Of a stretch of DNA of 64,000 nt, positions 2,541-60,383 are shown one piece after another. The DNA comes from Eledone cirrhosa. Lineage: Eukaryota. The stretch spans positions 16,058,001 to 16,122,000 of the forward strand of contig OZ024747.1 of NCBI GenBank assembly GCA_964016885.1, read 5' to 3'. The notes beneath the pieces were generated by a model. That model had not been told where the DNA came from. It worked only from the letters and a program-made list of their open reading frames with translations, and did not search any database. The translations under genes were made by a program, and so were the position numbers. Numbering within the stretch: the stretch's first letter is position 1; each line of letters starts with the position of its first letter.

Positions 2541-3144
2541 AACATCATCATCATTATTATTCTTAAGCCTCATTCTATATTCTGTTTCCAAAAGAAACAA
2601 TGTAACTTACAAGCTTGCAATCGTGGCAGCTCTTCATCAAAACATAAAATAACTTTAGCAAATACATTATACAAAAGCTATAAAACAATAATAACAACAA
2701 AATAAAAAAAATATAAAATCAAAACCAAACAAACAAAACATGTATGAAATATTCTAATTCCATAGTTTGCCTGAAAAATGTGTAACAAGAATTTTCTTTC
2801 TAATTTGTCTGTTGAAATCAAACATTATTTAAAAGTTAGTTTGTATAGTTTTTACCCATTTTTTTCTTGCAGGAATTCGATATTTATTTGACAAGAGGAA
2901 ATTAAAGCTAAAGGTTAAATTACTTATGAAGCACATTTCTGAAACTGCGGACACGTGCAAACAGACACACACACAACACACACTGACACAGACAGCCACA
3001 AAAACAGAGGCACACACACACACACGTAGAAGCACGCAGGCATATATAGATATACACACATGTAGCTATACACACACGCGTAAACACCATTGCCCATTCA
3101 TAAATAATAGTTTGACTTAAAAAAACATACTTATTAATATTATA

Positions 3145-29780: not shown

Positions 29781-30359
29781 GGGTTGCACATGGGTTACAT
29801 ATTATAAAATTAGTCATAATATGTAACCCATGTGCAACCACGCAGTATTTCTCTTTCTTCTCATGTGTTTTATACATATTTACCTCGGATGCGTTGTCTG
29901 TTTCTCTCTTTCTCTCTCACTGCTCCCCCGTTCTCTCTGTTTCTCTCACCTTCTTTCGCCCCCTCTGTCAGTTACACTTTCTCTCGACTGACCTCTTCCT
30001 CACACTTCCACTCACTCACTCTCTGTTCCTCCCCTTCTCACTTCCTCCCATTTCGTTGGACAGTGGGGTTCTTTCCTTCTTTCTCACATCTCACTCACGT
30101 CGGACGGTCTGTATTCTACACGCTCATAAAAGTCACCCAGCTTATGCTGACCGGATAACTATGTTGCTTGTTTTTTTTCCTATCTTCTGTTTGCCTTTAT
30201 CCTTCTACGTTGTTTACTCATCTCACTCGCTTTACGCGACTCACTTGTCCCAATAGCTTTTTTTAGTTATTGCTCGCACCAACCTGAGGTATATGATTTT
30301 TAATGCGATGAATACCAATGATGGTTGGCAAATCACTGACGAGGGACTAATTTTATAAT
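29781..30359 (+). mobile_element. PLE-like non-autonomous element with inverted junction, in (TA)n; diverged relative of 58572-60010
   Basis: Start gtaacccatgtgcaaccacgcag and end gctcgcaccaacctgaggtat..cactgacgagggac match 59390-60009; 29781-29815 is the reverse complement of the end-to-start junction. Confidence 0.7.
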
Positions 30360-30360
30360 G

Positions 30361-30394
<34 letters not shown>

Positions 30395-39726: not shown

Positions 39727-42700
39727 CCCATCAATGCCACAAACACCATCACCTCCATCATCAACCCCACAAACACTATCAACACCTCCATCATCAACAC
39801 CACAAACACTAACACCACCATCATCAACCCCACAGACACTAACACCTCCATCATCAACCCCACAAACACTAACACCTCCATCATCAACCCCACAAACACT
39901 AACACCTCCATCATCAACCCCACAAACACTATAACCCCCATCATCAACCCCACAAACACTATCACCTCCATCATCAACACCACAAACACTAACACCACCA
40001 TCATCAACACCACAAACACTAACACCTCCATCATCAACGCCACAAACATCATCACCTCCATCATCAACCCCACAAACACTATCAACACCATCATCAACAC
40101 CACGAACACTAACACCACCATCATCAACCCCACAGACACTAACACCTCCATCATCAACACCACAAACACTAACACCTCCATCATCAACGCCACAAACATC
40201 ATCACCTCCATCATCAACCCCACAAACACTATCAACACCATCATCAACACCACAAACACTAACACCACCATCATCAACCCCACAGACACTAACACCACCA
40301 TCATCAACCCCACAAACACTAACACCTCCATCATCAACCCCACAAACACTAACACCTCCATCATCAACCCCACAAACCCTAACACCCCCATCATCAACCC
40401 CACAAACACTATCACCTCCATCATCAACACCACAAACACTAACACCACCATCATCAACCCCACAAACACTATCACCTCCATCATCAACACCACAAACACT
40501 ATCACCTCCATCATCAACCCCACATACACTATCACCTCCATCATCAACACCACAAACACTATCACCTCCATCATCAACACCACAAACACTATCACCTCCA
40601 TCATCAACACCACAAACACTATCACCTCCATCATCAACACCACAAACACTATCACCTCCATCATCAACACCACAAACACTAACACCTCCATCATCAACCC
40701 CACAAACACTAACACCCCCATCATCAACCCCACAAACACTATCACCTCTATCATCAACACCACAAACACTAACACCTCCATCATCAACACCACAAACACT
40801 AACACCTCCATCATCAACACCACAAACACTAACACCTCTATCATCAACACCACAAACACTAACACCTCCATCATCAACACCACAAACACTAACACCTCCA
40901 TCATCAACCCCACAAACACTAACACCCCCATCATCAACCCCACAAACACTAACACCCCCATCATCAACCCCACAAACACTATCACCTCCATCATCAACAC
41001 CACAAACACTAACACCTCCATCATCAACACCACAAACACTATCACCTCCATCATCAACCCCACAAACACTAACACCCCCATCATCAACCCCACAAACACT
41101 ATCACCACCATCATCAACACCACAAACACTAACACCTCCATCATCAACGCCACAAACATCATCACCTCCATCATCAACACCACAAACACTATCAACACCA
41201 TCATCAACACCACAAACACTAACACCACCATCATCAACCCCACAGACACTAACACCTCCATCATCAACCCCACAAACACTAACACCTCCATCATCAACCC
41301 CACAAACACTAACACGCCCATCATCAACCCCACAAACACTATCACCTCCATCATGAACACCACAAACACTAACACCACCATCATCAACCCCACAAACACG
41401 AAAACCTCCATCATCAACCCCACAAACACTATCACCTCCATCATCAACACCACAAACACTAACACCACCATCATCAACCCCACAAACACGAAAACCTCCA
41501 TCATCAACACCACAAACACTAACACCTCCATCATCAACACCACAAACACTAACACCTCCATCATCAACACCACAAACACTAACACATCCATCAACAACCC
41601 CACAAACACTATCACCTCCATCATCAACACCACAAACACTAACACCACCATCATCAACCCCACAAACACGAAAACCTCCATCATCAACACCACAAACACT
41701 ATCACCTCCATCATCAACACCACAAACACTATCACCTCCATCATCAACCCCACAAACACTAACACCCCCATCATCAACCCCACAAACACCATCAACACCA
41801 TCATCAACCCCACAAACACGAAAACCTCCATCATCAACCCCACAGACACTAACACCTCCATCATCAACCCCACAAACACTATCAACACCATCATCAACCC
41901 CACAAACACGAAAACCTCCATCATCAACCCCACAGACACTAACACCCCCATAATCAACCCCACAAACACTATCACCTCCATCATCAACACCACAAACACT
42001 AACACCACCATCATCAACCCCACAAACACGAAAACCTCCATCATCATCACCACAAACACTATAACCTCCATCATCAACACCACAAACACTGTCACCTCCA
42101 TCATCAACACCACAAACACTATCACCTCCATCATCAACACCACAAACACTATCACCTCCATCATCAACACCACAAACACTGTCACCTCCATCATCAACAC
42201 CACAAACACTATCACCTCCATCATCAACACCACAAACACTATCACCTCCATCATCAACACCACAAACACTAACACCACCAAAATCAACCCCACAAGCACT
42301 ATCACCACCTCATCAACGCCACAAACACTAACACCTCCATCATCAACACCACAAACACTATCACCTCCATCATCAACACCACAAACATTATCACCTCCAT
42401 CATCAACACCACAAACACTATCACCTCCATCATCAAGACCACAAACACTAACACCTCCATCATCAACCCCACAAACACTATCACCTCCATCATCAACACC
42501 ACAAACACTAACACCACCATCATCAACCCCACAAACACGAAAACCTCCATCATCAACACCACAAACACTAACACCTCCATCATCAACACCACAAACACTA
42601 ACACCTCCATCATCAACACCACAATCACTATCACCTCCATCATCAACCCCACAAACACTATCACCTCCATCATCAACACCACAAACACTATCACCTCCAT

Positions 42701-45700
42701 CATCAACACCACAAACACTATCACCTCCATCATCAACACCACAAACACTATCACCTCCATCATCAACACCACAAACACTATCACCTCCATCATCAACACC
42801 ACAAACACTAACACCTCCATCATCAACCCCACAAACACTAACACCCCCATCATCAACCCCACAAACACTATCACCTCTATCATCAACACCACAAACACTA
42901 ACACCTCCATCATCAACACCACAAACACTAACATCTCCATCATCAACACCACAAACACTAACACCTCTATCATCAACACCACAAACACTAACACCTCCAT
43001 CATCAACACCACAAACACTAACACCTCCATCATCAACCCCACAAACACTAACACCCCCATCATCAACCCCACAAACACTATCACCTCCATCATCAACACC
43101 ACAAACACTAACACCTCCATCATCAACACCACAAACACTAACACCTCCATCATCAACCCCACAAACACTAACACCCCCATCATCAACCCCACAAACACTA
43201 TCACCTCCATCATCAATCCCACAAACACTAACACCCCCATCATCAACCCCACAAACACTATCACCACCATCATCAACACCACAAACACTAACACCTCCAT
43301 CATCAACGCCACAAACATCATCACCTCCATCATCAACACCACAAACACTATCAACACCATCATCAACACCACAAACACTAACACCACCATCATCAACCCC
43401 ACAGACACTAACACCTCCATCATCAACCCCACAAACACTAACACCTCCATCATCAACCCCACAAACACTAACACGCCCATCATCAACCCCACAAACACTA
43501 TCACCTCCATCATGAACACCACAAACACTAACACCACCATCATCAACCCCACAAACACGAAAACCTCCATCATCAACCCCACAAACACTATCACCTCCAT
43601 CATCAACACTACAAACACTAACACCACCATCATCAACCCCACAAACACGAAAACCTCCATCATCAACACCACAAACACTAACACCTCCATCATCAACACC
43701 ACAAACACTAACACCTCCATCATCAACACCACAAACACTAACACATCCATCAACAACCCCACAAACACTATCACCTCCATCATCAACACCACAAACACTA
43801 ACACCACCATCATCAACCCCACAAACACTATCACCTCCATCATCAACACCACAAACACTATCACCTCCATCATCAACACCACAAACACTATCACCTCCAT
43901 CATCAACCCCACAAACACTAACACCCCCATCATCAACCCCACAAATACTATCAACACCATCATCAACCCCACAAACACGAAAACCTCCATCATCAACCCC
44001 ACAGACACTAACACCTCCATCATCAACCCCACAAACACTATCAACACCATCATCAACCCCACAAACACGAAAACCTCCATCATCAACCCCACAGACACTA
44101 ACACCCCCATAATCAACCCCACAAACACTATCACCTCCATCATCAACACCACAAACACTAACACCACCATCATCAACCCCACAAACACGAAAACCTCCAT
44201 CATCAACACCACAAACACTATAACCTCCATCATCAACACCACAAACACTGTCACCTCCATCATCAACACCACAAACACTATCACCTCCATCATCAACACC
44301 ACAAACACTATCACCTCCATCATCAACACCACAAACACTGTCACCTCCATCATCAACACCACAAACACTATCACCTCCATCATCAACACCACAAACACTA
44401 TCACCTCCATCATCAACACCACAAACACTAACACCACCATCATCAACCCCACAAGCACTATCACCACCTCATCAACGCCACAAACACTAACACCTCCATC
44501 ATCAACACCACAAACACTATCAACTCCATCATCAACACCACAAACACTATCACCTCCATCATCAACACCACAAACACTATCACCTCCATCATCAAGACCA
44601 CAAACACTAACACCTCCATCATCAAGACCACAAACACTAACACCTCCATCATCAACACCACAAACTCTAACACCTCCATCATCAACACCACAAACACTAT
44701 CACCTCCATCATCAACACCACAAACACTATCACCTCCATCATCAACACCACAAACACTATCACCTCCATCATCAAGACCACAAACACTAACACCTCCATC
44801 ATCAACACCACAAACACTATCACCACCTCATCAACGCCACAAACACTAACACCTCCATCATCAACACAACAAACACTATCACCTCCATCATCAACACCAC
44901 AAACACTATCACCTCCATCATCAACACCACAAACACTAACACCTCCATCATCAAGACCACAAACACTAACACCTCCATCATCAAGACCACAAACACTAAC
45001 ACCTCCATCATCAACACCACAAACACTATCACCTCCATCATCAACCCACAAACACTATCACCTCCATCATCAACCCCACAAACACTATCACCTCCATCAT
45101 CAACACCACAAACACTAACACCTCCATCATCAAGACCACAAACACTAACACCTCCATCATCAAGACCACAAACACTAACACCTCCATCATCAACACCACA
45201 AACACTATCACCTCCATCATCAACCCACAAACACTATCACCTCCATCATCAACCCCACAAACACTATCACCTCCATCATCAACACCACAAACACTATCAC
45301 CTCCATCATCAACACCACAAACACTATCACCGCCATCATCAACACCACAAACACTAACACCTCCATCATCAACACCACAAACACTAACACCTCCATCATC
45401 AACACCACAAACACTAACACCTCCATCATCAACACCACAAACACTAACACCTCCATCATCAACACCACAAACACTATAACCTCCATCATCAACACCACAA
45501 ACACTATCACCTCCATCATCAACACCACAAACACTAACACCTGCATCATCAACACCACAAACACTATCACCTCCATCAACAACCCCACAAGCACTATCAC
45601 CTCCATCATCAACCCCACAAACACTATCACCACCATCATCAACACCACAAACACTATCACCTCCATCATCAACACCACAAACACTATCACCTCCATCATC

Positions 45701-46675
45701 AACCCCACAAACACTATCACCTCCATCATCAACACCACAAACACTATCACCTCCATCATCAACACCACAAACACTAACACCTCCATCATCAACACCACAA
45801 ACACTATCACCTCCATCAACAACCCCACAAACACTATCACCTCCATCATCAACCCCACAAACACTATCACCACCATCATCAACACCACAAACACTATCAC
45901 CTCCATCATCAACACCACAAACACTATCACCTCCATCATCAACCCCACAAACACTATCACCTCCATCATCAACACCACAAACACTATCACCTCCATCATC
46001 AACACCACAAACACTATCACCTCCATCATCAACACCACAAACACTATCAACACCATCATCAACACCACAAACACTAACACCTCCATCATCAACCCCACAA
46101 ACACTAACACCTCCATCATCAACACCACAAACACTAACACCTCCATCATCAACGCCACAAACACAATCACCTCCATCATCAACACCACAAACACTATCAA
46201 CACCATCATCAACACCACAAACACTAACACCTCCATCATCAACACCACAAACACTAACACCTCCATCATCAACACCACAAACACTAACACCTCCATCATC
46301 AACACCACAAACACTAACACCTCCATCATCAACACCACAAACACTAACACCTCCATCATCAACACCACAAACACTAACACCTCCATCATCAACACCACAA
46401 ACACTATCACCTCCATCATCAACACCACAAACACTAACACCTCCATCATCAACACCACAAACACTAACACCTCCATCATCAACACCACAAACACTATCAC
46501 CTCCATCATCAACACCACAAACACTAACACCTCCATCATCAACACCACAAACACTAACACCTCCATCATCAACACCACAAACACTATCACCTCCATCATC
46601 AACACCACAAACACTATGACCTCCATCATCAACACCACACACACTATCACCACCTCATCAACACCACAAACACCA
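39727..46675. repeat. 30-bp minisatellite (atcacctccatcatcaacaccacaaacact), ~230 units
   Basis: Tandem units read directly; single-base deletions shift phase at ~42309, 44468, 44827, 45047, 45226. Confidence 0.97.
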
Positions 46676-58272: not shown

Positions 58273-58354
58273 GCCTTTACCGCGGTTTCAAGTTCCAGAA
58301 TAAACAGATAATCCAAGTGGTCTTTCATTCAGAAGGGAACCATCTTCAGAAGGC
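58273..58354 (-). ncRNA. Type I hammerhead ribozyme in a ~320-bp element between microsatellites
   Basis: Minus: gcctt-CTGAAGA-t ggttcc..gaatgaa..ttattc..ggaact t-GAAA-ccgcgg-TA-aaggc; 5-bp stem I, palindromic stem III, GUA triplet. Confidence 0.8.
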
Positions 58355-58571
58355 TCTTCTCCCCCGGAGAATATAATATTCCCGAGTTCAAATCACAAAC
58401 TGACGCCACACAGATGAGAGTGAATGATAAAAGAAATAATTCTGTCTGGTGCCGTGTGCAAAGACAAAAGGCAGGGTGGACAGGTCAATGTCCTGCCACT
58501 AGAAAAAGCAGCAGTCCAAACGGCCAAGTTTTATCTCTACTTTATATATATATATATATATATTATATATA

Positions 58572-60010
58572 TGATGATAAGGGCGCTGCGGAGTTGCAAA
58601 TGGGTTACATATGAAAAAAGTTTGTCCTTCATCAGTGATCTTCAAACTATCATAGGCATTTCATCGCTTTAAAGACCATATACCTCCGGTTGGTGCGAGC
58701 AACGGCTAAAAAAAGTCGTTGGGACACGTAAATAAAGGGGACGCGAGGGTAAACAAACAAAATGGTGAGGCAACAGAAAGTGAGGAAAGGAGACAAGTGC
58801 CAGATTTCTATGAATTTAAGTTCTGTGAAATCGTGAACGAGAGAATAAAGACCATCAAACCTGGTTGAAATGTGAGCAATGAAAGAATTTCGCACAGGTC
58901 TAACGGGAGGAAGAAGGGGTCTGGTCTGCGAATTCGGTAAACATAAGTTCTGTGAAATCGTAGACGAGAGAGAAAAAAAATTCCGACCAGCTTGGCCGAG
59001 AATGTGAGAGAAAAGAGTTACTCACAGGTTAAACGGGAAGAAAGAGGAGGAGGAGGAGAGGTAGTGACAGAGAATGAGTGAGTGAAGGGTGAGGTGAGGA
59101 AGAGGCTAACAGAGAAAGAGACTGCTAGAAAGGGTAAAGATACATAGAACGAAAAAGACGGTGTAGCAGCAGAGGAAAAAATATGTGTAAATATGATAAT
59201 AAGGGCGCTGCGGAGTTGCAAGTGGGTTACATATGAAAAAAGTTTGTCCTTCATCAGTGATCTTCCAACTATCATAGGCATTTCATCGCTTTAAAGACCA
59301 TATACCTCCGGTTGGTGCGAGCAACGGCTAACAAAAGTCGTTGGGACATGTAAATAAAGGGGACGCGAGGGTAAACATACAAAATGGTTGTAACCCATTT
59401 GCAACTCCGCAGCGCCCTTATTATCATATTTACACATATTTTTTCCTCTGCTGCTACACCGTCTTTTTCGTTCTATGTATCTTTACCCTTTCTAGCAGTC
59501 TCTCTCTATGTTAGCCTCTTCCTCACCTCACCCTTCACTCACTCATTCTCTGTCACTACCTCTCCTCCTCCTCCTCTTTCTTCCCGTTTGACCTGTGAGT
59601 AACTCTTTTCTCTCACATTCTCGGCCAAGCTGGTCAGAATTTTTTTTCTCTCTCGTCTACGATTTCACAGAACTTATGTTTACCGAATTCGCAGACCAGA
59701 CCCCTTCTTCCTCCCGTTAGACCTGTGCGAAATTCCTTCCTTGCTCACATTTCAACCAGGTTTGATGGTGTTTATTCTCTCGTTCACGATTTCACAGAAC
59801 TTAAATTCATAGAAATCTGGGACTTGTCTCCTTTCCTCACTTTCTGTTGCCTCACCATTGTGTTTGTTTACCATCGCGTCCCCTTTATTTACGTGTCCCA
59901 ACGACTTTTTTTAGCCGTTGCTCGCACCAACCGGAGGTATGTGGTCTTTAAAGCGATGAAATGCCTATGATAGTTGGAAGATCACTGATGAAGGACAAAC
60001 TTTTTTCATA
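58572..60010. mobile_element. PLE/retrozyme-like non-coding element: 622-bp unit as partial tandem (-) plus inverted full copy (+), in (TA)n
   Basis: gggcgctgcggagttgca at 58581 and 59203 (period 622); 59389-60010 is the reverse complement of one unit. Confidence 0.8.
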
Positions 60011-60383
60011 TATATATATATATATAAGTGTGTGTGTGTGTGTGTATAGGTGTTTATATATATATATATATGCATATTTTTGGCAATAAATGTACAGAAA
60101 ATTTTAAAATTTGCGAGATGAAATATTTATCAAGTCAACATATGTTGAAAACCAACGAAATTACAATGAACAAATAAAAGAGGAAATATAATTGTTCATT
60201 CTGAGTTGTAGTTTCTTGTTCTTTTGTTTTGTCATCATTTTCAAAGTATATTTTATATAATTAGACGATGTCAACACAAAATGATGTCTATGTTTGCAAT
60301 TTTAAGTAATAAATGGGTCACTATTTCTTTCATTTCTTCCAAAATTGATGAAAACTGCTTCAGGCATAATGGTTTGTAGACTG

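What the first reader, a model, noticed from the sequence alone, without database searches (positions are those of the whole stretch)
58572..60010. 622-bp ORF-less unit arranged as partial tandem plus short tail plus inverted copy
Seen: the minus strand reads the last ~155 nt of the unit, a full unit, then a ~38-nt extension into (TA)n. At 59388/59389 it flips at a microhomology (aaatggt versus aaatgggtta) into a full plus-strand unit ending in (TA)n. The unit has an internal ~135-bp duplication. Known: partial tandems, short 3' tails and inverted pseudo-LTRs are hallmarks of Penelope. Inference: reverse transcription of a circular or concatemeric RNA, with both ends primed in TA repeats.
Basis: partly seen in the sequence, partly recalled or inferred. 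Interest (0 to 1): 0.75.

Follow-up and report, generated by a model that had tools for sequence, protein, structure and literature searches.

The report
Non-coding Penelope-type retroelement in TA repeats
This is one copy of an abundant 622-bp non-coding repeat that shows every insertion hallmark of Penelope-like retrotransposons and was likely pasted into a TA microsatellite by a borrowed reverse transcriptase priming on both cut DNA ends; a tidy but ordinary example of a known kind.

Summary
Window 58570-60010 reads, on the minus strand, the last 157 nt of a 622-bp unit, a full unit and a 40-nt tail. At 59388/59389 it flips into a full plus-strand unit. Both outer ends abut (TA)n.

The unit has no long ORF and no Rfam ribozyme. 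The genome (3.0 Gb) holds thousands of copies, about 97-98% alike. They have variable 5' ends and only two 3' ends, about 40 nt apart, each ...TCATAT next to (TA)n.

In a position-ordered sample of 56 loci, 36 are single arms and 20 are head-to-head pairs. In 19 of the 20 pairs one arm ends at site 1 and the other at site 2. No (TA)n lies between the arms.

This matches the published Penelope-like (PLE) signature: partial tandem, 30-40-bp tail at one end, inverted 5'-truncated copy, (TA)n targets. An RT plus GIY-YIG PLE in the same genome shows the same two-site geometry.

Sister families share a roughly 200-nt 3' module with covarying helices.

I did not find the autonomous partner, and no RNA data were available, so circular versus multimeric template stays open.

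Verdict: non-autonomous PLE-type retroelement, a new member of a known kind, of modest interest.

The parts
58540..58569 (.). Left flanking (TA)n microsatellite (target remnant).
   Evidence: Sequence.
58570..58609 (-). Tail: unit positions 1-40 beyond the full unit. It ends ...CCCTTATCATCATAT at (TA)n (3' end 'site 2').
   Evidence: The same terminus occurs at 442 exact places genome-wide.
58610..59231 (-). Full 622-bp unit, minus orientation.
   Evidence: 97.9% identity to the plus unit. I1.
59232..59388 (-). 5' partial unit (unit positions 466-622), forming the pseudo-LTR-like partial tandem. Its 5' end meets the other arm.
   Evidence: (D4).
59389..60010 (+). Full unit, plus orientation (the inverted arm). 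It ends ...GGACAAACTTTTTTCATAT at (AT)n (3' end 'site 1', no tail).
   Evidence: The same terminus occurs at 267 exact places genome-wide.
60011..60027 (.). Right flanking (AT)n, followed by (GT)n.
   Evidence: Sequence.
59895..60010 (+). Conserved 3' module of the plus arm: GUCC, the P0 hairpin, P1 and P2 helices, the GAUGAAAU and CUGAUGA boxes, GGAC, then site 1. The same module lies on the minus strand at about 58610-58725 and 59232-59347.
   Evidence: Alignment of 23 copies from family A and its sister families, with the consensus structure. Covariation counts.
59649..59803 (+). Internal duplication (unit 261-288 and 388-415, 93% core; about 127-bp period). Its minus-arm counterpart is 58803-58867 / 58930-58994.
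   Evidence: (D6).

Best explanation
The locus is one insertion of a young, high-copy, ORF-less 622-bp repeat that carries the full Penelope-like insertion signature. It was likely made by target-primed reverse transcription from both cut ends of a (TA)n microsatellite, using a reverse transcriptase/endonuclease supplied in trans by a Penelope-like element that I could not identify.

Shown directly:
- the anatomy of the locus;
- the variable 5' ends;
- exactly two alternative 3' ends about 40 nt apart, each ...UCAUAU next to (TA)n;
- head-to-head pairs joined 5' to 5' without microsatellite between the arms;
- the rule that a pair has one site-1 arm and one site-2 arm;
- a 3' module shared with sister families;
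- the same geometry in a coding PLE of this genome.

Inferred mechanism:
1. A transcript longer than one unit is bound through its 3' module. It could be read-through of tandem copies, a circle, or successive template jumps.
2. The GIY-YIG endonuclease cuts both strands of a (TA)n tract.
3. Each DNA 3' end anneals to one of the two AUAU sites and is extended towards the RNA 5' end for a variable distance.
4. If only one end is extended, a single 5'-truncated arm results, with or without tail.
5. If both are extended, the two cDNAs are joined by end-joining, giving the inverted arrangement seen in the window.
6. The strict one-tail rule suggests that both ends use the same bound RNA or complex, one site each.
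For: Anatomy of the window locus.

Abundance and youth:
- 3459 first-look candidates; the 40 scored gave full-length matches at 96-100% identity.
- Exact-pattern counts: 794 site-1 read-throughs, 267 site-1 termini and 442 site-2 termini. Controls gave 0 in each search.

Termini and pairs:
- In 27 distinct loci of the best-scoring sample, nearly all arms lie in (TA)n. Their 3' ends fall at position about 620 or about 40-51.
- In the position-ordered sample there are 60 loci, 56 of them distinct: 36 single arms and 20 head-to-head pairs.
- 19 of the 20 pairs combine one site-1 arm with one site-2 arm; one pair is odd.
- 7 of 7 pairs in the other sample, the window's included, do the same.
- With site shares of about 0.62 and 0.38, independent choice would give mixed pairs only about half the time.
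- Arms meet with a 9-nt overlap to a 15-nt gap and no (TA)n between them.
- The 5' starts of 76 arms fall in every 50-nt bin of the unit, and single-arm lengths run from 60 to over 1528 nt.

Literature match:
- pLTR partial tandems, adjacent inverted 5'-truncated copy, a 30-40-bp tail often at one end only, (TA)n bias, and HHR-less clades (PMC8557442, passages).
- Two adjacent internal RT start sites that define the tail, cleavage and extension of both strands, a predicted dimer, and a multimeric transcript (PMC11167929, parts 1-2).

Same genome:
- 10,596 GIY-YIG candidates; all 150 scored are over the Pfam cut-off.
- Long ORFs carry RVT_1 plus a C-terminal GIY-YIG.
- One such element (L043, 1024-aa ORF) has an inverted left arm ending ...CTGTCTTAATAT|(AT)n. 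Its right arm ends 38 nt further at ...TTTTCCAATAT|(AT)n.

Sister families:
- Units are about 0.5-0.6 kb, with 6404 and 699 exact pattern matches.
- They share the 3' module and the two-site ends.
Against: - No autonomous partner carrying the module was found. There were 0 hits in 18 PLE loci and 0 of 20 regions downstream of other endonuclease hits. Three adjacency leads proved to be separate insertions.
- No hammerhead or other ribozyme turned up (12 matches at E<=10, none a ribozyme; none among the 150 rows shown of 212). So the HHR found in many PLE pLTRs and in animal retrozymes is absent, although Naiads lack it too.
- No RNA evidence of any kind was available.
- Target-site duplications cannot be read inside microsatellites.
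- The arms of a pair are only slightly more alike than arms of different loci (97.7%, n=21, against 96.9%, n=462). A shared template is therefore not demonstrated.
Confidence: 0.8

Rival explanations
1. This is a retrozyme-like element that propagates through a circular RNA copied by rolling-circle reverse transcription. That would explain arms longer than one unit without any tandem donor copies.
For: - Arms longer than one unit exist: 9 of 36 single arms exceed 622 nt. Two-unit arms occur in L010 and L027.
- Termini map cleanly on a circularised unit.
- Animal non-LTR retrozymes are reported as PLE pLTR derivatives (bioRxiv 10.64898/2026.07.22.740005, abstract and section 14 read; PMC7229834, listing and abstract start only).
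- The module keeps CUGAYGA and GAUGAAAU boxes.
Against: - No self-cleaving ribozyme was detected.
- The two boxes stand in the order GAAA...CUGAUGA, with no helix II next to GAAA (my reading).
- Tandem genomic copies that could give multimeric linear transcripts are common.
- There are no RNA data.
Confidence: 0.1
2. The inverted arrangement is two independent insertions that happened to land head-to-head in the same (TA)n tract.
For: (TA)n tracts are hot targets, and the genome holds thousands of copies. One locus (L106) has two pairs side by side.
Against: - 20 of 56 sampled loci are head-to-head.
- The arms abut directly, with no microsatellite left between them.
- No tail-to-tail counterparts were seen.
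- 19 of 20 pairs, plus 7 of 7 in the other sample, combine site 1 with site 2. Independent events would not do that.
Confidence: 0.03
3. This is a SINE-like element mobilised by a microsatellite-targeting non-LTR (LINE) retrotransposon rather than by a PLE.
For: It has 5' truncation, fixed 3' ends and insertion in simple repeats. LINE-type RT ORFs are present in the flanks of some loci. No PLE partner was found.
Against: Three features are described as PLE-specific and not seen in LINE target-primed reverse transcription (PMC8557442, passage): the optional 40-nt tail from two start sites, the partial tandems, and the frequent inverted 5'-truncated arm. A coding PLE of this genome shows them base for base in kind.
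Confidence: 0.05
4. It is an assembly artefact, or a DNA-level element (Helitron or other rolling-circle or foldback transposon, or a satellite).
For: Inverted and tandem repeats are prone to misassembly. Helitrons insert at AT and can form tandems (recalled, not from a call). The Logan contigs could not bridge the flip.
Against: - The same architecture, with different arm lengths, is found at dozens of dispersed loci.
- 5' ends are variable.
- The element has no terminal inverted repeats.
- The ends are ...CATAT, not CTRR.
- Copies are dispersed rather than arrayed.
Confidence: 0.02

Closest known systems
Endonuclease-positive Penelope-like elements (Neptune/Naiad-type; Craig et al. 2021; Frangieh et al. 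2024).
   Same: Partial-tandem pseudo-LTR, a 30-40-bp tail at one end, an adjacent inverted 5'-truncated copy, a (TA)n target bias, two internal RT start sites, and (as in Naiads) no canonical hammerhead.
   Different: The unit encodes no RT or endonuclease. It shares no detectable sequence with the PLE copies I examined. Both of its start sites end in AUAU next to (TA)n, so priming by microhomology is possible, whereas the anole element starts at a site not homologous to the target.
Animal non-LTR retrozymes (Cervera and de la Pena 2020; Li et al. 2026 preprint).
   Same: Short, non-coding, tandem-forming, non-autonomous retroelements, thought to be pLTR derivatives mobilised by PLEs.
   Different: Retrozymes are defined by type I hammerheads and circular RNAs. 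No hammerhead scores here, and circles are untested. The unit is also larger (622 bp).
MRC1 and other non-autonomous Chlamys elements of Chlamydomonas (Craig et al. 2021).
   Same: Non-autonomous PLE derivatives that form pLTRs and multicopy head-to-tail insertions, with a microsatellite insertion bias.
   Different: Those share their 3' ends with identified autonomous families; here the partner is unidentified. The host lineage and targets also differ ((CA)n/(C)n against (TA)n).
L1 5' inversions by twin priming (recalled, not from a call).
   Same: Both DNA ends of one break prime cDNA synthesis, giving an inverted 5' segment joined by microhomology.
   Different: In L1 the second primer lands at an arbitrary internal place on the RNA. 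Here both arms start at the element's own defined start sites, one at each site.

Membership tests
Penelope-like elements (as a non-autonomous derivative) | Single ORF with a telomerase-like RT plus a GIY-YIG endonuclease. | tested here: not met
   The longest frame is 123 aa. There was no tblastx similarity to PLE ORFs of this genome. The element can therefore only be a non-autonomous dependant.
Penelope-like elements (as a non-autonomous derivative) | Partial tandem (pseudo-LTR): a full copy preceded by a 5'-truncated copy. | tested here: met
   Window 59232-59388 plus 58610-59231. It is family-wide. 9 of 36 single arms are longer than one unit.
Penelope-like elements (as a non-autonomous derivative) | Optional 30-40-bp tail, set by two adjacent RT start sites. 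| tested here: met
   There are two 3' ends about 40 nt apart, with 267 and 442 exact termini. The window carries one of each.
Penelope-like elements (as a non-autonomous derivative) | Inverted 5'-truncated copy adjacent at the 5' end, with the tail at one end only. | tested here: met
   20 of 56 loci are head-to-head. 19 of those 20 have one tailed and one untailed arm.
Penelope-like elements (as a non-autonomous derivative) | Sequence shared with an autonomous PLE (usually the 3' end or pLTR). | tested here: inconclusive
   The module was found in 0 of 18 PLE loci and in 0 of 20 regions downstream of endonuclease hits. Only a small part of 10,596 candidates could be sampled.
Penelope-like elements (as a non-autonomous derivative) | Hammerhead ribozyme in the pLTR (canonical clades; absent in Naiads). 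| tested here: not met
   Rfam at E<=10 on the locus gave no ribozyme. None appeared among the 150 rows shown for five tandem loci of family A and its sister families, plus the coding PLE locus L043.
Animal non-LTR retrozymes | Type I hammerhead in each monomer. | tested here: not met
   The CUGAYGA and GAAA boxes are present but in permuted order, without a helix II.
Animal non-LTR retrozymes | Monomeric circular RNA in vivo. | not testable with these tools
   No RNA run was listed.
Helitron / DNA transposon | Fixed 5' and 3' ends (TC...CTRR, or terminal inverted repeats with target duplication). | tested here: not met
   The 5' starts of 76 arms are spread over the whole unit. The 3' ends are ...CATAT.

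The most novel reading that the evidence does not exclude
The strict one-tail rule is the genomic footprint of a single two-headed Penelope complex. One bound RNA offers two AUAU start sites 40 nt apart. They are held by a conserved three-way-junction module that looks like a hammerhead that has lost catalysis. Each cut DNA end takes one site. On this reading the family is a ribozyme-less counterpart of animal retrozymes.
Probability: 0.25. Interest if true: 0.6.

Novelty: new member of a known kind. Interest (0 to 1): 0.35.

Why it matters
On its own the locus is an ordinary repeat insertion. Its value is as clean natural data on a poorly understood transposition mechanism.

The family is young and abundant. 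Its termini can be read base by base, and its head-to-head insertions always combine the two start sites. That is a testable constraint on how Penelope enzymes handle the two DNA ends, beyond what the single in vitro study reports.

It also shows that short non-coding PLE dependants can thrive without a hammerhead. This bears on the debate over whether the ribozyme is needed for PLE or retrozyme mobility.

For annotation, these families (over 8,000 modules by exact patterns) and their link to (TA)n tracts explain a visible share of this genome's repeats. They also explain assembly-unfriendly inverted structures.

Tried and rejected
**Ribozymes**
- Rfam at E<=10 on 58300-60300 gave 12 weak matches. 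They were miRNA/snoRNA look-alikes from microsatellites and the inverted repeat, with no ribozyme.
- A second scan covered five tandem loci of family A and its sister families, plus the coding PLE locus L043. It gave only microsatellite miRNA look-alikes in the 150 rows shown of 212.
- I tried by eye to fit the CUGAYGA and GAUGAAAU boxes to hammerhead types I, II and III. The order is permuted, and no helix II adjoins GAAA.

**Folding**
- The window's own module copy is no more stable than shuffles (z = +0.55). Structure rests on covariation only.

**Coding start inside the module**
- The idea of an ORF start (MIVGKSLMRD...) inside the module came from third-position-like changes. Those same changes are explained by helix P1, and one sister family has a stop at codon 11. 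Left open; not used.

**Partner hunt, all negative**
- A regex and peptide motif over PLE loci L031-L048.
- blastn of modules against those loci (the output was cut, and the only real hit was a stray sister-family fragment in L046).
- Two spacing leads, L139 and L140.
- ORFs in the flanks of 60 module loci.
- A GIY-YIG fragment 0.7 kb downstream of a D-type copy, which proved to be a separate 5'-truncated insertion beyond a (TA)n tract.
- 20 regions downstream of endonuclease hits.
- tblastx of units against PLE loci.

**Other dead ends**
- RNA evidence: no RNA holder was listed.
- The Logan contigs of four runs (one study) are 40-110-nt pieces, and none bridges 59388/59389. There is therefore no independent check of the assembly at this locus.
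- The repeat finder on L043 returned only microsatellite noise.
- Earlier findings of this scan: none for this genome.
- The organism was not determined. Pfam on eight window ORFs gave nothing useful.

Full report
**What is there**

The repeat finder gives a 201-nt direct repeat at spacing 622 (58566-58766 against 59188-59388, 97%). It also gives inverted arms of 626 nt (58606-59231 against 59389-60014, 98% complementary).

I took 59389-60010 as the 622-bp unit. On that numbering the minus strand carries three pieces:
- unit positions 466-622, at 59388..59232;
- a full unit, at 59231..58610;
- positions 1-40, at 58609..58570, which run into (TA)n.

The plus strand then carries one full unit that stops at ...TTTTTTCATAT followed by (AT)n.

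No stop-to-stop frame exceeds 123 aa. An internal duplication exists but is weak: 65 nt at 72% with spacing 127, and a 28-nt core at 93%.

**It is a dispersed, young, abundant family**

The window's genome is 3.0 Gb. A search with the unit gave 3459 first-look candidates. The 40 that were scored gave full-length matches of 96-100% identity on many chromosomes.

Whole-genome exact-pattern counts, each with a control of 0:

| Pattern | Exact matches |
|---|---|
| Module read through into the next unit or the tail | 794 |
| Termini at 'site 1' (...GGACAAACTTTTTTCATAT + TA repeat) | 267 |
| Termini at 'site 2' (...GCGCCCTTATTATCATAT + TA repeat) | 442 |

In the 27 distinct loci of the best-scoring sample, almost every arm lies inside a (TA)n tract. 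Arms start at variable unit positions and end at one of these two sites.

**An unbiased look at the architecture**

The pattern searches list places in chromosomal order. I therefore used the first 30 loci of each terminus type. That gave 60 loci, of which 56 are distinct after dropping three loci hit by both searches and one segmental duplicate.

- 36 loci are single arms, 60 to over 1528 nt long. 9 of them are longer than one unit.
- 20 loci are head-to-head pairs like the window's.
- The 5' starts of all 76 arms fall in every 50-nt bin of the unit, as expected for 5' truncation.
- In pairs the arms meet directly, with a 9-nt overlap to a 15-nt gap and no microsatellite between them.
- 19 of the 20 pairs combine one site-1 arm with one site-2 arm. 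The twentieth has a 42-nt internal scrap as its second arm.
- All 7 clear pairs of the first sample, the window's included, follow the same rule.

Since the sites are used about 38:62 overall, independent choice would give mixed pairs only about half the time. The two arms are therefore coupled, which argues for one event per pair.

Arms of a pair are only slightly more alike (mean 97.7%, n=21) than arms of different loci (96.9%, n=462). That is compatible with a common template plus later mutation but does not prove it.

**Comparison with what is known**

Craig et al. 2021 (PMC8557442; passages read) describe the following for endonuclease-positive Penelope-like elements:
- partial tandems forming pseudo-LTRs;
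- an inverted 5'-truncated copy adjacent at the 5' end;
- a 30-40-bp tail, often at one end only;
- a microsatellite bias, (TA)n in Naiads;
- absence of canonical hammerheads in Naiads;
- non-autonomous derivatives in Chlamydomonas.

Frangieh et al. 2024 (PMC11167929; parts 1-2 read) studied an anole PLE in vitro. They report that:
- reverse transcription starts at two adjacent internal sites whose spacing is the tail;
- both DNA strands are cut and extended;
- the protein is predicted to dimerise;
- a multi-copy transcript is the likely template.

A 2026 preprint (10.64898/2026.07.22.740005; abstract and section 14 read) argues that animal retrozymes are pLTR-derived non-autonomous PLEs.

Every structural feature of that signature is met here. 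The coding capacity and the hammerhead are not.

**PLEs of the same genome**

A Pfam GIY-YIG search gave 10,596 candidates, and all 150 scored were over the cut-off.
- In 6 of 6 long ORFs fetched, the endonuclease is C-terminal.
- The same holds in 7 of the 12 top loci, the ones that gave an ORF under my filter.
- It is often preceded by a CX4CxxC motif.
- Pfam finds RVT_1 with GIY-YIG in two of the three ORFs scanned and RVT_1 alone in the third (L043).

One element with a 1024-aa ORF (L043) sits between TA-rich microsatellites. Its inverted left arm ends ...CTGTCTTAATAT|(AT)n. Its right arm ends 38 nt further, at ...TTTTCCAATAT|(AT)n. That is the same two-site, one-tail geometry.

Several other families end ...AATAT next to (TA)n. 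The family under study thus behaves like the coding PLEs around it.

**The shared 3' module**

Weaker matches near some copies led to sister families with units of about 0.5-0.6 kb. They give 6404 exact matches to one degenerate pattern and 699 to another, with controls of 0.

These families share about 200 nt at the 3' end with the 622-bp family, and they use the same two kinds of terminus.

I aligned 23 copies. RNAalifold predicts a three-way junction:
- a long-range GUCC/GGAC helix;
- hairpin P0;
- helix P1 enclosing P2.

97.2% of cells are paired, against 30-38% when partners are slid. Six pairs show compensatory changes, four in P0 and two in P1.

These are few independent events. The window's own copy is also no more stable than shuffles (z = +0.55). 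The structure is therefore plausible, not established.

The module keeps invariant CUGAYGA and GAUGAAAU boxes, but in the order GAAA...CUGAUGA and without a helix II next to GAAA. No Rfam ribozyme model scores. I read it as the likely protein-binding platform that positions the two start sites. That is inference.

**What I could not settle**

- I did not find an autonomous element carrying the module. Only a sliver of the PLE population could be sampled.
- No RNA run was listed, so circular, multimeric-linear or template-jumping sources of arms longer than one unit cannot be told apart.
- The public contigs laid on the flip are too short to bridge it. The assembly at this one locus is therefore supported only by the recurrence of the same architecture elsewhere.
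- Target duplications are unreadable in microsatellites.

**Verdict**

The element is best filed as a non-autonomous, hammerhead-less, (TA)n-targeting PLE dependant, a new member of a known kind.

The one point that may interest specialists is the strict pairing of site 1 with site 2 in double-ended insertions.

Noticed in passing
window 29782-30362: A copy of a sister family (about 85% to the F/C-type units) with its tail, preceded by a 31-nt inverted scrap of the same unit. It is a miniature head-to-head insertion of the same kind.
   Followed up: partly
window 39729-46673: A 30-bp minisatellite (consensus CATCAACACCACAAACACTAACACCTCCAT), 231 copies, 92% matches. It explains the huge overlapping 'ORFs' in several frames there.
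   Followed up: yes
L006 (about 3000-3100), L013 (about 2500-2545), L045 6160-6275, L173, L177: Another recurrent (TA)n-flanked terminus, ...GACACCTCGGTTATTTTTCATTTTGTAAAAAAACCTCACTTTCTAATAT. In L173 and L177 it lies about 1.1 kb downstream of a C-terminal GIY-YIG hit, so it is probably the 3' end of a coding PLE family.
   Followed up: partly
L043 5130-6270: The coding PLE in L043 carries about 1.1 kb of TG/TA microsatellite between its stop codon and its terminal 390 nt. This suggests microsatellite growth inside the element's 3' region.
   Followed up: no
unit positions about 235-301 and 373-395 (window plus arm about 59623-59689 and 59761-59783): The 5' starts of arms are somewhat enriched just at the two copies of the internal duplicated motif. 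The 251-300 and 351-400 bins hold 10 and 8 of 76 arms. This could mark RNA 5' ends or pause sites. The windows were chosen after seeing the data.
   Followed up: partly
G000 C4:103846054-103848707: An array of about five units of a shorter variant (period about 497) of the family, whose first 325 nt are only 86% like the unit. It is the longest tandem seen.
   Followed up: no
L129 and L130 (G000 C1:205107021-205110045 and C1:205446363-205449387): Two loci 339 kb apart carry an identical pair structure (a 50-nt tail-only arm plus a 614-nt arm). This is probably a segmental duplication that copied one insertion.
   Followed up: no
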